Shown here: positions 21,891 through 43,510 of the stretch, one piece after another
Position numbering within the stretch: the stretch's first letter is position 1
Layout of the letters: each line of letters begins with the position of its first letter
Origin: Escherichia phage ev099
DNA: 47,224 nucleotides
Strand: one strand, 5' to 3'
Sequence record: NC_049953.1
The notes under the pieces: generated by a model
Databases searched by the model: none
What the model was told of the DNA's origin: nothing
The model's input: the letters and a program-made list of their open reading frames with translations, nothing else
Translations under genes and position numbers: made by a program

Positions 21891-23123
21891 ATGATAGGTG
21901 GGGAGTATGGTGCATTATGGCGTAATGATGGCGCTAAAACTTACCTGCTGCTTACCAATCAAGGTGATGTTTATGGTGGCTGGAATACATTAAGACCGTT
22001 TGCTATTGATAACGCAACCGGCGAACTGATTATTGGAACCAAACTGTCCGCAAGTCTGAACGGTAATGCATTAACAGCAACAAAGCTGCAAACGCCAAGA
22101 CTGGTTTCTGGTGTTGAGTTTGATGGTTCCAAAGATATTACTTTAACCGCCGCGCATGTGGCTGCTTTTGCCAGAAGGGCAACGGATACATATGCCGATG
22201 CGGATGGGGGCGTTCCATGGAATGCCGAATCAGGCGCTTACAATGTCACCCGCTCTGGCGACAGCTATATTCTGGTTAACTTCTATACCGGAGTCGGAAG
22301 TTGCCGGACCCTGCAGATGAAGGCACATTACAGAAATGGAGGTCTGTTCTACCGTTCCTCAAGAGATGGCTATGGTTTTGAGGAAGACTGGGCAGAAGTT
22401 TATACCTCGAAAAATCTTCCACCAGAAAGCTACCCAGTCGGCGCACCAATCCCGTGGCCATCAGATACCGTTCCGCCTGGTTATGCCCTGATGCAGGGGC
22501 AGACTTTTGACAAATCTGCATACCCGAAACTTGCAGCCGCTTATCCGTCAGGCGTGATCCCTGATATGCGTGGCTGGACGATTAAGGGCAAACCTGCCAG
22601 TGGTCGCGCCGTATTGTCTCAGGAACAGGACGGCATTAAATCGCACACCCACAGCGCCAGCGCATCCAGTACGGATTTGGGGACGAAAACCACATCGTCG
22701 TTTGATTACGGAACCAAATCCACGAATAACACCGGGGCGCATACCCATAGTATTAGCGGGACCGCAAATAGTGCCGGTGCGCACCAACACAAGAGTTCCG
22801 GTGCATTTGGTGGCACGAACACGAGCATTTTCCCTAATGGTTATACCGCGATTTCAAATCCAAGCGCGGGGATTATGAGCACAACAAGCGGTAGTGGCCA
22901 GACTCGTAATGCAGGAAAGACATCATCAGATGGTGCTCATACCCACTCGCTGTCCGGCACTGCTGCAAGCGCAGGCGCACATGCACATACTGTCGGTATT
23001 GGTGCTCATACGCACTCCGTTGCGATTGGCTCACATGGACACACCATCACCGTTAACGCTGCGGGTAACGCGGAAAACACCGTCAAAAACATCGCATTTA
23101 ACTATATTGTGAGGCTTGCATAA
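21891..23123 (+). CDS. stf: side tail fiber, distal part: collar and His-box region ending with the conserved ...[11 protein letters not shown] tip
   Basis: 410 aa, same frame as upstream stf ORF; contains GAPIPWPSD collar motif and GAHTHS/GAHAHT His boxes. Confidence 0.8.
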
Positions 23124-23704
23124 TGGCATTCAGAATGAGTGAACAACCACGGACCATAAAAATTTATAATCTGCTGGCCGGAACTAATGAATTTATTGGT
23201 GAAGGTGACGCATATATTCCGCCTCATACAGGTCTGCCAGCAAACAGTACCGATATTGCACCGCCAGATATTCCGGCTGGCTTTGTGGCTGTTTTCAACA
23301 GTGATGAGGCATCGTGGCATCTCGTTGAAGACCATCGGGGTAAAACGGTTTATGACGTAGCGTCAGGGGACGCGTTATTTATTTCTGAACTCGGTCCGTT
23401 ACCGGAAAATGTTACCTGGTTATCGCCGGAAGGGGAGTTTCAGAAGTGGAACGGCACAGCCTGGGTGAAGGATACGGAAGCAGAAAAACTGTTCCGGATC
23501 CGGGAGGCGGAAGAAACAAAAAACAGCCTGATGCAGGTAGCCAGTGAGCATATTGCGCCACTTCAGGATGCTGTAGATCTGGAAATCGCAACGGAGGAAG
23601 AAATCTCGTTGCTGGAAGCATGGAAGAAGTATCGGGTGTTGCTGAACCGTGTTAATACAACAACTGCACCGGATATTGAATGGCCAGTAGCACCTATAGG
23701 GTAA
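23123..23704 (+). CDS. tfa: tail fiber assembly protein
   Basis: 193 aa [24 protein letters not shown]...; TAATG overlap with stf stop as in lambda. Confidence 0.93.
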
Positions 23705-24563
23705 ATTCGTAATGATTACCTAAATACGTTATTCTTTTGCTCAAAAAGTGATTTTGCTATAGGTAGAGAGTATGTTCTTGGATTAAGAATAAAAAATCGC
23801 CATGAAAGAGCTTCATGGCGAGTACATAAACGTACAAAATATGATGAAAGTAGAGTGGCGTAAGCCACTATATTAAGATATGACAATAGCGAAGAAAAGT
23901 AAATAACATTTTATGGGCGTTTAATTGTTAATTATAAAAACTAGAGTGCCCGATATTGTTTATCTTGCTTTAAAATAATGTACTCAAACCAAATTTTTGA
24001 GCTAAAAGCTCAAATAATATAAATGCAATGATAATGTTTAATAAGACAATTAGCTTGCTTTGTATTTTCATTTCGGAATACTGTTAAGTAACTTTGATGA
24101 CCCTAACAATAGATCGGAATTTTCTTAGAGTCAATGGACACTGTTTTTGCTTGCAAAGCAAATGTTTTGGTGGTTATAAGTTGTCTTAATATAGTCACGC
24201 ATGCAACTTGTTCCATGCGGAGATTAAAGATTGGAATATAACGCGAAGATGGAATTAAATTACATTTGCAATAATCAATTTATTATTGCTCAATAATTAC
24301 CGATATTATTATTGTAAATTAATCATTAGAGTGCAAAAAGAAATGTAACGGCAAAATAAGAGGACGATAGCTGAGAAAAAAGCGTGCTTTCCCAATCTGG
24401 GGCAAATCACGTCTGAATGACACCTGAAAACAGGTGGTAGCCTCAAGAAGGCTTGGAATATTCTTCTTTAATGTTATGTAATTCATTGATTTTTCGTGTA
24501 CGATTTTAAGACATTTATTCCAAGAAAAATTTTTAACTCTTTGATTTTTCGACTCTGTATCAT

Positions 24564-24625
24564 CGGTCTCGAAAACCGGAGTAGGGGCAACTCTACCGGG
24601 GGTTCAAATCCCCCTCTCTCCGCCA
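24564..24625 (+). tRNA. partial tRNA-Ser (serU-like, anticodon CGA) 3' portion only, about 62 nt, ending CCA
   Basis: GGTCTCGAAAACCGGAGTAGGGGCAACTCTACCGGGGGTTCAAATCCCCCTCTCTCCGCCA matches the 3' two-thirds of E. coli tRNA-Ser(CGA); no acceptor/D-arm upstream. Confidence 0.8.
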
Positions 24626-25200
24626 CTTTATCAATGACTTATCTCCCGACTTCCCGCCTTGCTTTTCCTAAACAGAACAATCGTAGAATATTCTTGAAGG
24701 GTTAGATCGTCACTGTTTTCTGTTCGATACTGTGACATTCAGCACTTGATTCGCTATGGATCTAACAGGAAGGTTTTGAGCGAAAATTTGCAGTTATTCA
24801 GTCGTTTTCTTATCGGTCACCATTATTCTTTTAGACATTGATCCTACAAAGCTGCCGCAAAGTTGGTGGTGGGAACTGAAGTTGCGTAGAGAAGGGGTCA
24901 ATACCCGGAGGCAAACATGGGCTGGCAAAAGTGTAGCGGTATTAGGCGCAGCTATTTAGCCTAGTTATGTTTTATGAAAACTTAATATCATATAAGTGTC
25001 TTACTTATTGGCTGTAAATAAGTTTTTCCTAAGGAATTGTTTCTTGAGTATCATTTGTAACTGTAACGGAATTTATAATCCTTTGCTTTATTGTTACGGT
25101 ATTTTTTATCACACCCTATTTTTTATATGGTTTTTTATACTGAAGTTTGGCAAAGTGAACTTTATATGCATATACTTCATCCTGGTTTCAGTTAAGTTGG

Positions 25201-25953
25201 GTGGATGATATGGCAACTACATGTTCAGTTATATTGATTTTGGAGTCCTTTGATGTTTATTTCGGAAAAGAGAGTGTGTTTCTGGAGAGAGGTTCATCTG
25301 TACTTGTCGACTCTAGCTCTAGAGATTTTTTCCTGACATATCCTGAAAGAGTGATAGTGGCGGATTTTGGCGCTGAGTTTATTAGTCGCTATTTGAAAGC
25401 TAATAACTTAAGGGATATTTATGATTGTAGGGAATATCCATCTTATTTAAAAATAAACTTTGCTGACTTCAGTTTAATTAAAGGATTAATTAGTTGGGCT
25501 AATCACTGTGCTGAATACATAGAAATTTTTGATGAGTCTATTGCTTTTACATGTCTCTCTGCATTTTCTTCTGAAAAACAATTTGGAGTATTTCTGTTTG
25601 AATGTTTGAAAAGCACAGAGGCTAAAGTTAAAACGATTATTCATACGGATTTATCTGCACCATGGCGTCTTAAGGATATATCATCAAGATTATATCTCAG
25701 CGAAAGTTTACTAAAGAGGAAATTGAAAGACGAGGGGGTATCATTCAGTAAGATCATACTTGATGAGAGGATGCAAATGGCTGAATATTTACTCAGCACT
25801 CGTTGTTATCCTATTAGTAAAGTAGCTAAGGTCTGTGGTTATGCCAGTGTCTCATACTTTACTTATGTATTTAGACGTTATTTTGGTGTTTCTCCAAGTC
25901 AATACTCTCAGAGGAGTTCAGAAAGTAAAATTCTTACTCACCAGGGAATCTGA
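25201..25953 (+). CDS. AraC/XylS-family transcriptional regulator (GadX/AppY/EnvY-like), AT-rich
   Basis: 250 aa; C-terminal dual HTH signature ...LKDISSRLYLSESLLKRKLKDEGVSFSKII...VAKVCGYASVSYFTYVFRRYFGVSPSQY; true start may be ATG at 25210. Confidence 0.85.
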   Translation: MDDMATTCSVILILESFDVYFGKESVFLERGSSVLVDSSSRDFFLTYPERVIVADFGAEFISRYLKANNLRDIYDCREYPSYLKINFADFSLIKGLISWANHCAEYIEIFDESIAFTCLSAFSSEKQFGVFLFECLKSTEAKVKTIIHTDLSAPWRLKDISSRLYLSESLLKRKLKDEGVSFSKIILDERMQMAEYLLSTRCYPISKVAKVCGYASVSYFTYVFRRYFGVSPSQYSQRSSESKILTHQGI

Positions 25954-26425
25954 TCATTGTTCTTGCCCCCTTATTTCCAGACAGGGGGTGTATCTTAAGT
26001 TAACGTTACCCGCTGACGTCGATATTCTCGCGGAGAGCGATAACCCAACGCACTGTGCGGATGGTTTTCATTGTAATGTTCGATCGCCACTGCAAGATTA
26101 TGCAATGCCGTTCTTACATTCGGTTTCGGCATGAACGCGATGTAGTCTTCCTTCATCGTTTTCACGAACCTTTCTGCCATTCCATTACTCTGAGGACTGC
26201 TGATTGCCGTTGTGCAGGGCTCCAGATTCAACTCTCTGGCGAACTGCCATGTTTCATGCGCTCTATACGCTGAACCGTTATCTGTCAGCCACTGGATGGA
26301 CTGTTCCGGTACTTTATCGCCAAAGCGTTTTTCTATCGCTCCTAACATGACATCCTGCACTGTCGCTTTATCGTAACCTCCCGTGCTTGCGGCCCAGTCT
26401 ATGGCTTCACGATCGCAACAGTCCA
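25951..26425 (-). mobile_element. IS2-like insertion sequence remnant (3' part of orfB transposase plus terminal inverted repeat)
   Basis: Minus-strand ORF ...[27 protein letters not shown]...[14 protein letters not shown] matches IS2 InsD C-terminus; end sequence ...tctggaaataagggggcaagaacaatgatca resembles IS2 IRR. Confidence 0.8.
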
Positions 26426-26445
26426 GGGCGAACGTAACACGCAGT

Positions 26446-26665
26446 TTTGAATCGCCACGGGTTTAACAGACACCTCAGAGTCATTTAAGATGGCTTAAAG
26501 AGAGGTGCCCATGAGCGGTAAGCGTTATCCCGAAGAGTTTAAAACTGAAGCAGTCAAACAGGTTGTTGATCGCGGTTATTCTGTTGCCAGCGTTGCAACA
26601 CGTCTCGATATCACCACCCACAGCCTTTATGCCTGGATAAAGAAGTACGGTCCGGATTACTCCAC
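26446..26665 (+). mobile_element. IS3-family insertion sequence remnant (left end plus N-terminal orfA fragment)
   Basis: MSGKRYPEEFKTEAVKQVVDRGYSVASVATRLDITTHSLYAWIKKYGP is a typical IS3-family OrfA HTH N-terminus; reading frame degenerates after about 50 codons. Confidence 0.7.
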
Positions 26666-26819
26666 TTTTTCATCAAGCCAATCCGCCCACCACTGCATCA
26701 TTTCTCTGCGCTTATCGAGATACTGAGCGTGGTTGTAAATTCAGCTAACCCAGTGTGTTGACAAAAAATTAGCGCAAGAAGACAAAAATCACCTTGCGCT
26801 AATGCTCTGTCTCAGGTCA

Positions 26820-27036
26820 CTAATACTATCTAAGTAGTTGATTCATAGTGACTGGATATGTTGTGTTTTGTAGCATCATGTAGTCTATTTTTGAGACTAA
26901 AGATATTGTAACACATTGATATTACTGGTTTTTAATGTTTCACGTTCAGCTTTTTTATACTAAGTTGGCATTATAAAAAAGCATTGCTTATCAATTTGTT
27001 GCAACGAACAGGTCACTATCAGTCAAAATAAAATCA
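26820..27036. other. attP: attP phage attachment site (core GCTTTTTTATACTAA at 26949-26963, with P and P' arms)
   Basis: Exact lambda core and conserved P' arm; P arm partly divergent. Confidence 0.9.
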
Positions 27037-28107
27037 TTATTTGATTTCAATTTTGTCCCACTCCCTGCCTCTGTCATCACGATACTGTGATGCCATGGTG
27101 TCCGACTTATGCCCGAGAAGATGTTGAGCAAACTTATCGCTTATCTGCTTCTCATAGAGTCTTGCAGACAAACTGCGCAACTCGTGAAAGGTAGGCGGAT
27201 CCCCTTCGAAGGAAAGACCTGATGCTTTTCGTGCGCGCATAAAATACCTTGATACTGTGCCGGATGAAAGCGGTTCACGACGAGTAGATGCAATTATGGT
27301 TTCTCCGCCAAGAATCTTTTTGCATTTATCAAGTGTTTCCTTCATTGATATCCCGAGAGCATCAACATGCAATGTTGTTGGGATGGCAATTTTTACGCCT
27401 GTTTTGCTTTGCTCGACATAAAGATATCCATCTACGATATCAGACCACTTCATTTCGCATAAATCACCAACTCGCTGCCCGGTAACAACAGCCAGTTCCA
27501 TTGCAAGTCTAAGCCAACATGGTGATGATTCTGCTGCTTGATAAATTTTCAGGTATTCGTCAGCCGTAAGTCTTGATCTCCTTACCTCTGATTTTGCAGC
27601 GCGAGTGGCTGCGACCGGGTTTGTTGTTATATGGCCTTCAGCTATAGCCTCTCGGAATGCATCGCTCAGTGTTGATCTGATTAACTTGGCTGATGCCGCC
27701 TTGCCCTCGTCTATGTATCCATTGAGCATTGCCGCAATTTCTTTTGTGGTGATGTCTTCAAGTGGAGCATCAGGCAGACCCCTCCTTATTGCTTTAATTT
27801 TGCTCATGTAATTTATGAGTGTCTTCTGCTTGATTCCTCTGCTGGCCAGGATTTTTTCGTAGCGATCAAGCCATGAATGTAACGTAACGGAATTATCACT
27901 GTTGATTCTCGCTGTCAGAGGCTTGTGTTTGTGTCCTGAAAATAACTCAATGTTGGCCTGTATAGCTTCAGTGATTGCGATTCGCCTGTCTCGGCCTAAT
28001 CCAAACTCTTTACCCGTCCTTGGGTCCCTGTAGCAGTAATATCCATTGTTTCTTATATAAAGGTTAGGGGGTAAATCCCGGCGCTCATGACTTCGCCTTC
28101 TTCCCAT
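27037..28107 (-). CDS. int: integrase (tyrosine recombinase)
   Basis: 356 aa MGRRRSHERRDLPPNLYIRNNGYYCYRDPRTGKEFGLG...; lambda Int. Confidence 0.97.
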   Translation of the reverse strand: MGRRRSHERRDLPPNLYIRNNGYYCYRDPRTGKEFGLGRDRRIAITEAIQANIELFSGHKHKPLTARINSDNSVTLHSWLDRYEKILASRGIKQKTLINYMSKIKAIRRGLPDAPLEDITTKEIAAMLNGYIDEGKAASAKLIRSTLSDAFREAIAEGHITTNPVAATRAAKSEVRRSRLTADEYLKIYQAAESSPCWLRLAMELAVVTGQRVGDLCEMKWSDIVDGYLYVEQSKTGVKIAIPTTLHVDALGISMKETLDKCKKILGGETIIASTRREPLSSGTVSRYFMRARKASGLSFEGDPPTFHELRSLSARLYEKQISDKFAQHLLGHKSDTMASQYRDDRGREWDKIEIK

Positions 28108-28303
28108 TTCTGATCCTCTTCAAAAGGCTACCTGTTACTGGTCGATTTAAGTCAACCTTTACCGCTGATTCGTGGAACAGATACTCTCTTCCATCCTTAA
28201 CCGGAGGAGGGAATATCCTGCACTCGCGTACCCATCGACGAACTGTTTCAAGGCTTCTTGGGCGTCGCTGGCGTGCGTTCCACTCCTGAAGTGTCAAGTA
28301 CAT
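28085..28303 (-). CDS. xis: excisionase
   Basis: 72 aa MYLTLQEWNARQRRPRSLETVRRWVRECRIFPPPVKDGREYLF... Confidence 0.95.
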   Translation of the reverse strand: MYLTLQEWNARQRRPRSLETVRRWVRECRIFPPPVKDGREYLFHESAVKVDLNRPVTGSLLKRIRNGKKAKS

Positions 28304-28746: not shown

Positions 28747-29445
28747 TTACGGCACTGCGTTAATCAGATTACAAATACCTCTTTTGGCAGGGTCTGAATT
28801 CAACTTCTGAAAATTGGCGTTCAACATAGCCGTGTGTAAGTGATTCTCAACCTCAAAGAATAGGTCGATTTTGCCCTCTTTGGCTGCCTGTTTCTTCCAA
28901 ATATTCACTTGGTCATCAGCAATACGACTAGCGCAAGTGAACAAGAACGAACTGCCTCTAGGAATGGATGTCGTGCTGTAATACTCACCATCTACTTCTA
29001 CATATTTAGCTCGGAATGACTCTAAGGTTAGCTTATTGCCGTTCTTGACCGACTTAGCTTCTGCCTTACTTGTATCTTCCTGCTCTTTAGAATGTTTCTG
29101 CGCCGACGTGGGTATGTCATTGGCCGCTGTTACGCTGACTGAACTCCCCAAACCTTTGAGGCCATTAATTTGGATAAGATAAGCCAGCTCCAGAGCCTTA
29201 TTATCAGTGAGTTTTCCACGCATATTTACCCACTGACGTTGAACCATTTTTAGGGTGTCTGCGTTCTCTGGGTTTCCTTTGAGGGCACTAGAATAGGCAG
29301 AGCTAAGCTGTTCGTCTAATTTTGACAGACGTTCGTTATCGCAGATTTTATGTTCGATTGCTGTCGAAGCCTTTTGGCAGTCAAAGCTGGCTGCAAATGC
29401 ACCCGGCGATGCCACTAACAATGATGCCAGTAGGATATTTTTCAT
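28747..29445 (-). CDS. secreted DUF1311 / LprI-like (lysozyme-inhibitor-like) domain protein; moron at the ea8.5 position
   Basis: Signal peptide MKNILLASLLVASPGAFA; then FDCQKASTAIEHKICDNERLSKLDEQLSSAYSSAL... matching the DUF1311 Cys/Leu pattern; GGAG RBS before ATG at 29445. Confidence 0.75.
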   Translation of the reverse strand: MKNILLASLLVASPGAFAASFDCQKASTAIEHKICDNERLSKLDEQLSSAYSSALKGNPENADTLKMVQRQWVNMRGKLTDNKALELAYLIQINGLKGLGSSVSVTAANDIPTSAQKHSKEQEDTSKAEAKSVKNGNKLTLESFRAKYVEVDGEYYSTTSIPRGSSFLFTCASRIADDQVNIWKKQAAKEGKIDLFFEVENHLHTAMLNANFQKLNSDPAKRGICNLINAVP

Positions 29446-29575
29446 ATTCACTCCATAAATACAAAAGCGCATTACTATAGCACTTAACCGATCGCTTATC
29501 TCGCCCGTTCGTCATTCTTATCTAACCAGAACATGCGACTGCCACAGCACATGTCGAGGATTGCTGCATGTCCAG

Positions 29576-35180: not shown

Positions 35181-36038
35181 TTATCGTTTATTTCTTTGAT
35201 GTTTCTTTGCAGACTCAGCTTGAGTGTTTCCATACCTGCGTTTACCGCTATTGTTTTTTCCTCTAGGCTTGCCTTTTTTTCGATCTTCCCACCAGTCAGG
35301 TGCCGGGTCTGGCTCAACATGTAAAGCATCGGCAAGTCCTGATATCAAGCTGTATGACTGAACTCCATCAATGTGCTCTGACAGTGATGGGGTAACATTC
35401 TGTCTTAGTGGATCAAGAATAAAATCAATACCTTTAATTCTGGCGTGTTTGGCGGCAGGCACAAAGTCTGAGTCCCCAGCAACAAGGACAATTACATCAA
35501 CAAGTTTTTCATAAGCTAAAGTCGTGATATCCATCCCTAGCTTGATATCAACTTGTTTTTGTTTGATGTCATAGTAAAAATCATCATTTGTCAGTTCATC
35601 CCATTTTTTCGTTCCTTTCATCAGAGCATCAAGGGAGAATGTAGTTAGTTGCCATCGCTTATTATCAACAAGATTCCCTAATCTTAAGGCTGTTTTTCGA
35701 GTTTTTCTTAACTCTTCATGCAGCTCCGTTCTCAGAATATATGATTTTTCGAGTTTGAAATTCTTGCGACCAGGCGTCTTATTGCCAGGCTCAGGAAGTG
35801 GAAGGCGTGTTTGAATGTCGAGTGGTGGACAGTCATAGAAGTAAATTCTATAAAGCTCAAGCGGTTCCCTACGTTCTTGTGATTGACGTTTTCCATTAAG
35901 ATGGGAAAGAACCATTGACCATATTACTTTCATTATGCATTGCGCAGTCAGTTCATGCTCGGCGAAGTGTTTACGATGCGTAGCATGAACACGCTGCATG
36001 AAAAAACCCGCATCAATTAAAATTGCTGCTTTCTTCAT
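35181..36038 (-). CDS. NYN-domain (PIN-like) putative nuclease with basic C-terminal tail, occupying the rexA/rexB position
   Basis: 285 aa; KKAAILIDAGFF at N-terminus and DVIVLVAGDSDFVPAAK...GIDF core resemble NYN/LabA motifs; Lys/Arg-rich tail; located between cI and OL. Confidence 0.75.
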   Translation of the reverse strand: MKKAAILIDAGFFMQRVHATHRKHFAEHELTAQCIMKVIWSMVLSHLNGKRQSQERREPLELYRIYFYDCPPLDIQTRLPLPEPGNKTPGRKNFKLEKSYILRTELHEELRKTRKTALRLGNLVDNKRWQLTTFSLDALMKGTKKWDELTNDDFYYDIKQKQVDIKLGMDITTLAYEKLVDVIVLVAGDSDFVPAAKHARIKGIDFILDPLRQNVTPSLSEHIDGVQSYSLISGLADALHVEPDPAPDWWEDRKKGKPRGKNNSGKRRYGNTQAESAKKHQRNKR

Positions 36039-41770: not shown

Positions 41771-41855
41771 AGTCAGAGATAACAATCAACTAATACTGTT
41801 TTGTTGATTTTTGCTTGTAATTGGCGTTCTGGTCTGATTTTTGTGGAGTAAGTTG

Positions 41856-42239
41856 ATGCGTGATATTCAGATGGTTCTTGAGCGTTGGGGAGCGTGGGCG
41901 GCTAATAATCATGAAGATGTGACCTGGTCGTCCATTGCCGCCGGTTTTAAGGGATTAATTACTTCAAAAGTAAAATCTCGCCCGCAATGTTGTGACGATG
42001 ACGCGATGATCATTTGCGGGTGCATGGCCCGTCTGAAAAAGAACAACAGCGATTTGCACGATTTATTAGTAGATTATTATGTAGTCGGTATGACATTCAT
42101 GTCACTGGCAGGTAAGCATTGCTGCTCTGATGGTTATATCGGGAAAAGGTTACAGAAGGCTGAGGGTATAATTGAAGGGATGTTAATGGCATTAGATATC
42201 CGGTTAGAGATGGATATCGTTGTTAATAACTCTAATTAA
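41856..42239 (+). CDS. Q: late gene antiterminator Q, phage 82 / DLP12 QuuD type
   Basis: [33 protein letters not shown]... with Cys-rich zinc-binding region; not lambda-type Q. Confidence 0.88.
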
Positions 42240-42427: not shown

Positions 42428-43510
42428 TTAGAACTGGTAAACCATACCTACAGCAACGATATCATCGGTAGCAACGCCAGATGCTTTCGTGAAATCGCTC
42501 TTATCAATCAGGTTGATTTTGTAGTCAACAAAAGTGGACATATTTTTGTTGAAGTAATAGGTTGCACCTACATCAACATATTCAACCAGGTCCTGATCAC
42601 CCCAAACACCCAAGTCTTTTCCTTTAGAATGCAGGTAAGCAACGGATGGACGCAGGCCGAAGTCGAACTGATATTGTGCAACAGCTTCGAAGTTTTGTGC
42701 TTTGTTGGCAATATGGTTATTACCAAAAACAGTCATGTTCTGGGTTTCAGAATAGGTGGTGGCCAGATAGATGTTGTTCGCATCATATTTCAGACCAGCT
42801 GCCCATACTTCAGCATTTTGACCAGAAGCATTCAGACCGTTGTTACCGTAGATAACCTGATTATTAGTGCGATCAGATTTAGCATAGGTTGCACCCACGC
42901 CGAATCCTTCATACTCATAAGTAGTTGAGAAACCGAAACCATCGCCATTAGCTTCAGTTACTTCATTTCGGTCATTTTTGCCCTGATACTGAGCTGCAAA
43001 GTTCAGGCCATCAACCAGACCAAAGAAGTCGTTGTTACGATAAGTTGCAACACCTGTGGTGCGACCAGTCATGAATACATCTGTTTGGGTCCAGGTATCG
43101 CCACCGAATTCTGGCAGAACGTCAGTCCACGCACCGATGTCGTATGCTACACCGTAGTTACGGCCGTAATCGATTGAGCCGTAGTCACCGAATTTCAGGC
43201 CTGCAAATGCAAGACGGGTTTTGTCTTTGGAGGAACCTTGAGATTCAGCGCGGTTGCCTTTGAATTCATATTCCCACTGACCGAAACCAGTCAGTTGATC
43301 GTTGATTTGGGTTTCACCTTTGAAGCCAAGACGGGCATAAGTAGTATCACCATCATCTGCATCATTAGAGGAGAAGTAGTGCTTAGCATTAACTTTCCCG
43401 TACAGATCCAGCTTGTTACTGTCTTTATTATAAATTTCAGCTGCCTGAGCAGACATCGCCATCAGTACTGATGCAGCTACAGCAGAAATTGCCACTGTTA
43501 ATTTTTTCAT
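42428..43510 (-). CDS. outer membrane general porin (NmpC/Lc/OmpC family), intact
   Basis: 360 aa; signal peptide [39 protein letters not shown]..., C-terminal ...VAVGMVYQF. Confidence 0.93.

What the first reader, a model, noticed from the sequence alone, without database searches (positions are those of the whole stretch)
25201..25953. AT-rich AraC/XylS-family regulator carried as phage cargo, with its stop codon supplied by an IS end
A 250-aa regulator with a typical C-terminal double HTH sits in low-GC DNA, in the style of horizontally acquired regulators such as AppY, EnvY, GadX or PatE. Its TGA stop (25951-25953) is the first three bases of the adjacent IS2-like terminal repeat, so the native C-terminus may have been trimmed by the insertion. 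A prophage-borne AraC-like regulator could rewire host acid-resistance or envelope genes in the lysogen.
Basis: partly seen in the sequence, partly recalled or inferred. Interest (0 to 1): 0.5.

Follow-up and report, generated by a model that had tools for sequence, protein, structure and literature searches.

The report
patE acid-resistance regulator on lambdoid phage
The gene is an intact copy of patE, a known prophage-borne AraC-type activator of E. coli acid resistance; its stop codon is its own, because the neighbouring insertion-sequence remnant begins four bases after it.

Summary
The ORF is real. It is AT-rich (35% GC against 50% for the window) and has a complete AraC-type double HTH. 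The true start is ATG 25210, giving 247 aa, not GTG 25201. It is patE: 243/247 residues match ECs_0287 of O157:H7 Sakai prophage Sp1, and EDL933 carries an identical copy in the same small lambdoid remnant (CP-933H, Z0321). PatE is a published activator of gadE/hdeA acid-resistance genes and repressor of LEE genes. The window is a complete-looking lambda-like phage genome, and patE lies between the tail-fibre assembly gene and attP.

The IS claim fails. The element is ISEc48 (IS3 family, IS2 group). Its tip is TGTTCTTGCC at 25958, four bases (TCAT) after the TGA. Paralogues 79-82% identical, with no IS nearby, end at the same codon or three codons earlier, so nothing was trimmed. The insertion removed the native 3' region, which in those paralogues holds a terminator hairpin. 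The patE-ISEc48 junction is present in about 656 of 658 patE-positive complete E. coli genomes and in 23/23 metagenome contigs.

Upstream lie a fossil serU attR, 278 bp of core chromosome and an IS630-family remnant.

The parts
25210..25953 (+). patE coding sequence: 247 codons plus a native TGA stop. The alternative GTG at 25201 is not the real start.
   Evidence: ORF. Pfam HTH_18 and HTH_AraC. 243/247 identical to Sakai ECs_0287, with EDL933 carrying the Sakai allele. The exact 247-aa protein is already in public collections, named there for Escherichia phage ev099. Start codon from homologue alignment.
25147..25176 (+). Promoter-like site TTGGCA-18-TATACT, 34 nt upstream of the ATG; probably patE's own promoter.
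   Evidence: 10/12 consensus match. The same hexamers at the same distance from the ATG occur in two 79-82% paralogue loci in a different phage position. Function not tested.
24959..25209 (+). AT-rich native upstream region of the patE unit (the unit 24959-25957 has GC 0.33).
   Evidence: Shared with Sakai Sp1. About the last 110 nt are also shared with the Q-holin paralogues. Composition.
25954..25957 (+). TCAT: four native bases between the stop codon and the IS tip.
25958..26447 (-). ISEc48 remnant (IS3 family, IS2 group), 490 bp: the right inverted-repeat tip plus the C-terminal part of the transposase (ORF 25995-26360, minus strand).
   Evidence: Pfam rve_3, and NCBIfam IS2 TnpB at 181 bits against a cutoff of 597. 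Full ISEc48 copies match the window from 25958 to 26448. Sakai annotation.
26448..26666 (+). 5' remnant of a second IS3-family element (ISEhe3-like), inserted into ISEc48 and then truncated. It carries an orfA N-terminal fragment.
   Evidence: 92-97% matches to 'ISEhe3 orfA' regions of SfIV and Klebsiella phages at query 1549-1767. Pfam HTH_Tnp_1.
24904..24958 (+). 55-bp 3'-terminal remnant of an IS630-family element, ending ...GGCGCAGCTATTTA.
   Evidence: 93% match to the 3' end of an annotated IS630-family transposase gene and its end.
24564..24903 (+). Captured E. coli core chromosome: the 3' 62 nt of tRNA-Ser serU (24564-24625) plus 278 bp of its downstream flank. This is a fossil attR of a serU-integrating prophage.
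   Evidence: Matches 5423 of 5426 complete E. coli genomes at about 97%, over tRNA-Ser. Alignment with a K-12-like serU locus, a serU-integrated prophage attR and Sakai Sp1. The fragment begins at tRNA position 29. ARAGORN finds no whole tRNA.
23705..24563 (+). AT-rich, ORF-poor right-end DNA of a serU-type lambdoid prophage, downstream of tfa.
   Evidence: Contiguous match to the prophage right end in NCTC10444, running up to attR.
26949..26963 (+). Lambda-type attP core GCTTTTTTATACTAA. The functional-looking int (27037-28107, minus) and xis (28085-28303, minus) lie just beyond it.
   Evidence: Exact core match. PHROG integrase and excisionase hits. The same cassette sits at the bio-side end of a lambda-attB prophage in strain OkiPb01701.

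Best explanation
The gene is an intact allele of patE, the prophage-borne AraC/XylS-family activator first characterised in EHEC O157:H7 (Z0321/ECs_0287). Here it is cargo in the b region of a lambda-like temperate phage.

Shown here: orthology, a complete double-HTH DNA-binding domain, a native start and stop, and an ISEc48 remnant that begins 4 nt after the stop. That remnant replaces the native 3' region, which in related genes holds a terminator hairpin.

Taken from the literature: PatE activates gadE, gadBC and hdeAB (acting through the -132 to -45 part of the hdeA promoter) and lowers LEE gene expression, and its expression depends on RpoS.

Inferred: in a lysogen of this phage, patE is transcribed from its own conserved promoter-like site, independently of the phage lytic programme, mainly in stationary phase. 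The protein binds AT-rich sites in the acid fitness island through its two HTH motifs and raises acid survival. Transcripts probably read on into the IS remnant, because the original terminator is gone.

The whole cassette (serU fossil, IS630 remnant, patE, ISEc48 remnant) has a single origin and moves between lambdoid prophages by recombination.
For: Identity. 243/247 aa match ECs_0287. EDL933 has one copy, in the same small lambdoid remnant, and it is identical to Sakai's. Z0321 is described as 'putative regulator (prophage CP-933H), O-island 8', and PatE is Z0321 in OI-8.

Domain. HTH_18 matches across the full profile. The modelled DNA-binding domain superposes on the GadX DNA-binding domain 3mkl at TM 0.91 and 1.6 A.

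Native C-terminus..

Fixed junction. The 3' half of patE is found in 658 genomes and the junction in 656 of 5426, and in 23/23 metagenome contigs.

Purifying selection across the family. dN/dS is 0.17-0.33 against the 79-82% paralogues.

Conserved promoter-like site; terminator present only in the paralogues.

Function. PMC10877973; RpoS dependence in PMC2907692; overexpression of the Nissle homologue raises survival at pH 2.5 (bioRxiv 10.1101/2025.08.01.668021).

Phage context..
Against: Nothing was measured for this allele or this phage. The window allele differs from the characterised EDL933 protein by S71Y, G131E, G137E and E174D. G131 and G137 are nearly invariant in the family alignment.

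Among seven patE alleles I counted 10 nonsynonymous changes to 1 synonymous. That is compatible with relaxed constraint inside the patE clade. Two of 21 metagenome copies with the whole gene carry a frameshift or a deletion.

The promoter call is only a consensus match. The N-terminal domain model is of low confidence. The primary PatE papers were not available; I relied on reviews.
Confidence: 0.85

Rival explanations
1. The IS insertion cut off the native C-terminus and the TGA is the first three bases of the IS terminal repeat, so the protein is a truncated or chimeric regulator.
For: The IS end lies very close to the stop. Two independent ISEc48 copies happen to have CTGATA(C/T) just outside their tips, which made some BLAST matches extend to window 25950. 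Rare frameshift alleles (P0002, P0006; 307-308 aa) do read into the IS remnant.
Against: The flanks of independent copies diverge exactly at TGTTCTTG, which is 25958, and a 5-bp target duplication fixes the tip there. An IS-free paralogue has TGA at the same codon. All relatives are 243-247 aa. The HTH_18 profile is matched to its last position. One allele has TAA at the same codon.
Confidence: 0.02
2. The gene is an intact but functionally decaying or silent passenger. It sits in IS debris, is silenced as AT-rich foreign DNA, and this allele is impaired by G131E and G137E, so it contributes nothing to the lysogen.
For: 10:1 nonsynonymous to synonymous changes among patE alleles. Two substitutions at nearly invariant glycines. 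Loss of the native terminator. IS remnants on both sides. Occasional frameshifted copies.
Against: All seven sampled genomic alleles keep the 247-codon frame, as do 19 of the 21 metagenome copies that include the whole gene. The rows sampled from the 658 genomes are annotated as an AraC-family regulator rather than a pseudogene. The EDL933 copy, with the same IS junction, is expressed, RpoS-dependent and has a mutant phenotype. G131E alone, and G131E plus G137E, recur in several strains and in viable phages.
Confidence: 0.12
3. The regulator mainly serves the phage, for example by controlling lysogeny, superinfection exclusion or late genes, rather than host acid-resistance genes.
For: Its closest paralogues sit between the antiterminator Q gene and the holin gene, where they would be co-transcribed with late genes on induction.
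Against: patE itself lies outside any phage operon, next to att. It survives in highly degraded prophage remnants such as Sp1/CP-933H and in an IS1-flanked islet that lack most phage genes. The published regulon is made of host genes.
Confidence: 0.02

Closest known systems
PatE (Z0321 / ECs_0287) of EHEC O157:H7, prophage CP-933H / Sp1, O-island 8
   Same: 98% amino-acid identity over all 247 residues. The upstream region, the serU fragment, the IS630 remnant and the ISEc48 junction are the same.
   Different: Four substitutions (S71Y, G131E, G137E, E174D). Here it is carried by a complete-looking lambda-attP phage rather than a degraded thrW prophage. The ISEc48 remnant is about 20 bp longer and is followed by an ISEhe3-like fragment.
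patE-like genes at the Q-holin site of lambdoid prophages (P0007, P0008 at 79-82%; P0011, P0013-P0019 at 51-55%). The last group probably includes PsrA/PsrB, but I did not verify this.
   Same: The same family and length, the same promoter-like site and the same stop position, with a low GC content of 31-37%.
   Different: They occupy a different slot in the phage, downstream of Q and upstream of the holin gene. They keep a terminator hairpin after the stop and have no IS next to them.
Chromosomal and cryptic-prophage paralogues of E. coli K-12: YdeO, GadW, GadX, AppY, EnvY
   Same: The same AraC subfamily and size. YdeO is 35% identical, GadW 34%, AppY 30%, and GadX and EnvY 35-39% over the C-terminal part. 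Several control the same acid-resistance island, and AppY is also prophage-borne.
   Different: They are not orthologues. The NCBIfam YdeO score is 148 bits against a cutoff of 348, and the GadX score is 110 against 500.
Rns / CsvR / ToxT virulence regulators (solved structures 6xiu, 9gfp, 3gbg)
   Same: They are the nearest full-length solved relatives by sequence (E 1e-14 to 1e-16) and share the two-domain layout.
   Different: Only about 20% identity. Their fatty-acid pocket could not be assessed because the N-terminal domain model is of low confidence (pLDDT 31-72; full-length TM 0.39).

Membership tests
AraC/XylS family of transcription regulators | A conserved C-terminal region of about 100 aa with two helix-turn-helix motifs | tested here: met
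   Pfam HTH_18 residues 161-238 against profile 2-80/80, E=1.2e-15; HTH_AraC with two stretches. The model of residues 150-234 has pLDDT 76-93 and superposes on the GadX DNA-binding domain at 1.6 A.
PatE (orthologue of Z0321/ECs_0287) | Near-identity over the full length to the characterised protein | tested here: met
   243/247 identical with no gaps. The EDL933 copy is identical to Sakai's.
PatE (orthologue of Z0321/ECs_0287) | The same genomic cassette (conserved flanks) | tested here: met
   The window from at least 24700 to about 26430 aligns with Sakai Sp1, including the serU fragment, the IS630 remnant and the ISEc48 junction. The junction is present in 656 of 658 patE-positive genomes.
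PatE (orthologue of Z0321/ECs_0287) | Activates gadE and hdeAB and raises acid survival; lowers LEE expression | not testable with these tools
   Known for the EDL933 allele only from the literature. This allele carries four substitutions.
YdeO (NCBIfam NF007407 equivalog) | Score at or above the curated cutoff of 348 bits | tested here: not met
   147.9 bits; 35% identity to K-12 YdeO.
GadX (NCBIfam NF007432 equivalog) | Score at or above the curated cutoff of 500 bits | tested here: not met
   110.2 bits, C-terminal half only.
ISEc48 (IS3 family, IS2 group): the neighbouring element | A terminal inverted repeat starting TG and a DDE transposase, with near-identity to full copies | tested here: met
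   96-99% identical to full ISEc48 copies from 25958 to 26448. The tip TGTTCTTGCC is defined by unrelated flanks and a 5-bp duplication. Only 490 of about 1335 bp remain.
Phage 'moron' (autonomous cargo gene) | Lies between phage modules, with its own promoter and terminator and a deviant base composition | tested here: inconclusive
   Position (between tfa and attP) and GC (0.35 against 0.50) fit. A conserved promoter-like site is present but untested. The terminator seen in the paralogues is absent here.

The most novel reading that the evidence does not exclude
Viable lambda-type phages (this genome, mEp332, PhiR70_1, ev099) carry patE as a transmissible conversion gene, so ordinary commensal or K-12 lysogens would gain RpoS-linked acid resistance. 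The cassette still carries a fossil serU attR plus 278 bp of core chromosome. It may therefore have entered phage genomes through aberrant excision of a serU prophage, in the manner of specialised transduction, and then spread by recombination to prophages at lambda attB, thrW and other sites in about 12% of sequenced E. coli.
Probability: 0.4. Interest if true: 0.35.

Novelty: already known. Interest (0 to 1): 0.15.

Why it matters
The gene is already named and characterised, so the main value is negative: there is no IS-made chimeric regulator here.

Some modest points come out of the anatomy. A single ancient patE cassette, bracketed by IS debris and a captured piece of chromosome, is fixed in essentially every patE-positive E. 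coli. It also sits on phages that still form plaques on K-12. That makes lysogenic conversion to acid resistance by an ordinary lambda-like phage directly testable.

The IS removed the native terminator, and this phage's allele has changes at two conserved glycines. Either could change expression or activity relative to the studied EHEC allele.

Tried and rejected
1. The primary papers were not held: Bender 2012 (PMC3416394), Yang 2015 (PMC4288888) and Tree 2011 (PMC7099609). Function is therefore cited from reviews and from an RpoS array paper.

2. The original EDL933 record NC_002655 is not in the collection. The link from Z0321 to this gene rests on three things: the O-island 8 / CP-933H description; the single copy in an EDL933 assembly; and my own knowledge that Sakai Sp1 corresponds to CP-933H.

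3. I could not verify that the 51-52% paralogues (P0013-P0019) are PsrA/PsrB, because no record with Z locus tags was available. This is left as 'probably'.

4. ARAGORN found no tRNA. The serU piece is only a 62-nt fragment and was found by BLAST instead.

5. Some BLAST matches of full ISEc48 copies began at window 25950-25957. Direct comparison of flanks showed chance similarity of two flanks (CTGATA) and not IS sequence.

6. A scan of one genome per species for the 3' end of patE gave no hits. The metagenome scan gave 23, all with the IS junction, so no IS-free patE was found.

7. The AlphaFold model is reliable only for the DNA-binding domain (mean pLDDT 65). No conclusion is drawn about a ligand pocket or about the structural effect of G131E and G137E.

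8. Rfam found nothing in or next to the gene.

Full report
**1. What is there**

The window is a complete-looking lambda-like temperate phage genome. It has these genes:
- the small and large terminase genes at the left end;
- the tail fibre gene (21891-23123) and tail fibre assembly gene (23123-23704);
- Int (27037-28107, minus strand) and Xis;
- a CI-type repressor, an O-like replication protein, antiterminator Q and an endolysin.

A lambda cIII thermoregulator RNA element is also present, and an exact lambda attP core lies at 26949-26963. The nearest sequenced phages are mEp332 and PhiR70_1, but no record in the phage collection covers 80% or more of the right half of the window.

The finding lies in the b region, between tfa and attP. 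The ORF 25201-25953 exists. A stop-free run of 247 codons at this base composition has a chance of about 5e-9. The coding sequence has 35% GC against 50% for the window. Pfam HTH_18 is matched from profile position 2 to 80 of 80 at E=1.2e-15, and HTH_AraC is matched twice. The real start is ATG 25210, giving 247 aa. Every homologue starts there, GTG 25201 reads GGG in the Sakai copy, and a GGTGGA run lies 4 nt before the ATG.

**2. What it is**

The protein is 243/247 identical to ECs_0287 of E. coli O157:H7 Sakai prophage Sp1. An EDL933 assembly has one copy, identical to Sakai's, in the same small degraded lambdoid prophage followed by a P4-like element. Z0321 of EDL933 is listed as 'putative regulator (prophage CP-933H), O-island 8' and is RpoS-dependent, with a 6-fold wild-type to rpoS ratio (PMC2907692).

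A review states that PatE is encoded by z0321 in OI-8 and reports the following:
- it is an AraC/XylS regulator;
- it activates gadB, gadC, gadE and hdeAB;
- it acts at hdeA through a cis element between -132 and -45;
- it negatively affects six LEE genes (PMC10877973).

Overexpressing the Nissle 1917 homologue raises survival at pH 2.5 (bioRxiv 10.1101/2025.08.01.668021).

It is not an orthologue of the K-12 paralogues. YdeO is 35% identical (148 bits against a cutoff of 348), GadW 34%, AppY 30%, and GadX 35% over the C-terminal part (110 bits against a cutoff of 500). The exact 247-aa sequence is already in public collections, named there for Escherichia phage ev099. In PHROGs it falls in phrog_1450, 'unknown function'.

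**3. The IS claim**

The neighbour is a 490-bp remnant of ISEc48, an IS3-family element of the IS2 group.

I aligned the window junction with four independent ISEc48 copies on plasmids. Their flanks are unrelated to the window and to each other right up to TGTTCTTGCC, which is window 25958. In one full copy a 5-bp target duplication (GATAC) brackets an element of 1335 bp that runs TGTTCTTG...GCTCA, which fixes the tip. Most ISEc48-only matches sampled in E. coli genomes begin at window 25958. The Sakai record annotates the partial ISEc48 from the fifth base after the CDS end.

Two copies happen to have CTGATA(C/T) just outside the tip. The TGA (25951-25953) and the next four bases (TCAT) are therefore native DNA.

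**4. Is the C-terminus native?**

Yes. Relatives 82% and 79% identical (P0007, P0008) lie in lambdoid prophages between the Q antiterminator gene and the holin gene, with no IS nearby. P0008 has TGA at the very same codon (...THEEI*), and P0007 stops three codons earlier. More distant relatives (51-55%) are 243-245 aa, and the K-12 paralogues are 242-253 aa, apart from GadX at 274. In the model, the last helix of the second HTH ends near residue 234 and residues 235-247 have pLDDT below 50.

What the insertion did change is the 3' flank. Both Q-holin paralogues carry a hairpin ((A/G)CCAGCATTATTGCTGGT followed by a T run) 50-65 nt after the stop. In the window no terminator-like site follows the stop until one weak 5-bp-stem site well inside the IS remnant.

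A promoter-like site, TTGGCA-18-TATACT, at 25147-25176 is conserved at the same distance from the ATG in all three loci.

**5. How widespread and how old the junction is**

The 3' half of patE matches 658 of 5426 complete E. coli genomes, and the patE-ISEc48 junction is covered in 656. All 23 metagenome contigs that contain the last 30 bases of patE continue with TCAT followed by TGTTCTTGCCCCC. I found no patE copy of 95% identity or more without the IS.

The hosts sampled are varied. They include O157:H7, bovine, pig and poultry isolates, and human, sewage and seawater isolates. The chromosomal sites also vary:
- next to bioA at lambda attB;
- thrW in O157;
- an IS1-flanked islet near paoD.

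**6. The cassette**

Upstream of patE the window is a mosaic.
- 23705-24563 matches the right end of lambdoid prophages integrated at serU.
- 24564-24625 is the 3' 62 nt of tRNA-Ser serU.
- 24626-24903 is the chromosomal DNA downstream of serU, present in 5423 of 5426 genomes.

Together these three segments form an attR junction, which arises only on integration. The phage genome therefore contains a fossil of an earlier integration site plus captured host DNA.

Then follow:
- a 55-bp 3' end of an IS630-family element (24904-24958);
- the AT-rich patE unit (24959-25957);
- the ISEc48 remnant (25958-26447);
- a 219-bp 5' piece of an ISEhe3-like element (26448-26666);
- lambda/434-like attP DNA.

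Sakai Sp1 shares the stretch from the serU fragment to about 26430 but has different DNA on both sides. Most metagenome copies keep the same left junction, and a few have an IS1 there instead. The cassette therefore has a single origin and has been moved between prophages.

**7. Constraint**

Against the 79-82% paralogues, dN/dS is 0.17-0.33, which indicates purifying selection on the family. Within patE the picture differs. Seven alleles differ by 10 nonsynonymous changes and 1 synonymous change, plus a TGA to TAA change at the stop. This ratio is not significantly different from neutral expectation (my own binomial estimate, p about 0.26), but it gives no sign of constraint.

The window allele differs from the characterised one by S71Y, G131E, G137E and E174D. 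G131 and G137 are nearly invariant in a 15-sequence family alignment in which the window is the exception. However, E131 alone, and E131 plus E137, recur in other strains and in phage mEp332. Two of 21 metagenome copies with the whole gene carry a frameshift or a deletion.

**8. Mechanism**

Shown here: a complete AraC-type DNA-binding domain that superposes on the GadX DNA-binding domain (TM 0.91, 1.6 A, 42% identity).

From the literature, for the EDL933 allele: activation of gadE and hdeAB, repression of LEE genes, and RpoS dependence.

Inferred for this phage: expression from the conserved promoter-like site in the lysogen, binding to AT-rich sites in the acid fitness island, increased acid survival, and transcripts running into the IS remnant.

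The N-terminal domain is modelled with low confidence. Rns, CsvR and ToxT are the nearest full-length solved relatives by sequence, but nothing can be said about a ligand.

**9. Verdict**

The functional guess was right because the gene is patE. The chimeric-stop idea is wrong. This is an already known gene in an ordinary, if neatly fossil-rich, cargo cassette.

Noticed in passing
window 24564-24903: A phage genome with a working lambda attP also holds a fossil attR of a serU-integrating prophage: the 3' 62 nt of tRNA-Ser plus 278 bp of E. coli core chromosome found in 5423/5426 genomes. This is host DNA captured by an earlier aberrant excision or by recombination.
   Followed up: yes
window 24904-24958: A 55-bp 3'-terminal remnant of an IS630-family element forms the left border of the patE unit. 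The same junction occurs in Sakai Sp1 and in most metagenome copies.
   Followed up: partly
window 26448-26666: The 5' end of an ISEhe3-like IS3-family element (tip TGAATCGCC, orfA fragment) is inserted into the ISEc48 remnant and then truncated where lambda/434-like attP DNA begins.
   Followed up: partly
window 25210-25953 (codons 71, 131, 137, 174): This allele differs from the studied EDL933 PatE by S71Y, G131E, G137E and E174D. G131 and G137 are nearly invariant in the family. Among seven patE alleles the changes are 10 nonsynonymous to 1 synonymous.
   Followed up: partly
proteins P0001, P0002, P0004, P0006 (relatives, not in the window): Rare 306-308 aa variants. P0002 and P0006 read through or frameshift near the end, into the ISEc48 remnant, so those alleles do have an IS-encoded tail. 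P0001 and P0004 are fused to the small upstream ORF.
   Followed up: partly
L004 3813-4930, L005 650-1760, L015, L019: The closest paralogues of patE occupy the Q-holin slot of lambdoid prophages, the slot used by stx genes according to general knowledge. They carry the same promoter-like site and their own terminator hairpin. In L004 a strong terminator precedes the gene.
   Followed up: partly
L007 about 1490-2855: A full ISEc48 that interrupts a plasmid carbohydrate-porin gene is flanked by a 15-bp direct repeat (ATTAAACTCCACATC), not the 5-bp duplication seen in L006.
   Followed up: no
window 23466-23664: Rfam IS009 (a candidate small RNA family) matches at 229 bits inside the 3' part of the tail fibre assembly gene.
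   Followed up: no
window 42428-43510 (minus strand): A 360-aa general porin gene (Porin_1, E=4e-152) lies between antiterminator Q (41841-42239) and the lysis genes. It is a second cargo gene of this phage.
   Followed up: no
window 35181-36038 (minus strand): A 285-aa ORF with a NYN (predicted nuclease) domain lies next to the cI repressor gene, in the position where lambda has rex according to general knowledge. It is a possible exclusion or defence gene.
   Followed up: no
window 28747-29472 (minus strand): A 241-aa ORF with a signal-peptide-like N-terminus and no Pfam match lies just beyond xis. Its function is unknown.
   Followed up: no
window 23705-24563: About 860 bp of 31% GC DNA after tfa has no ORF over 60 aa. 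It is conserved as the right end of serU- and Qin-type prophages.
   Followed up: no
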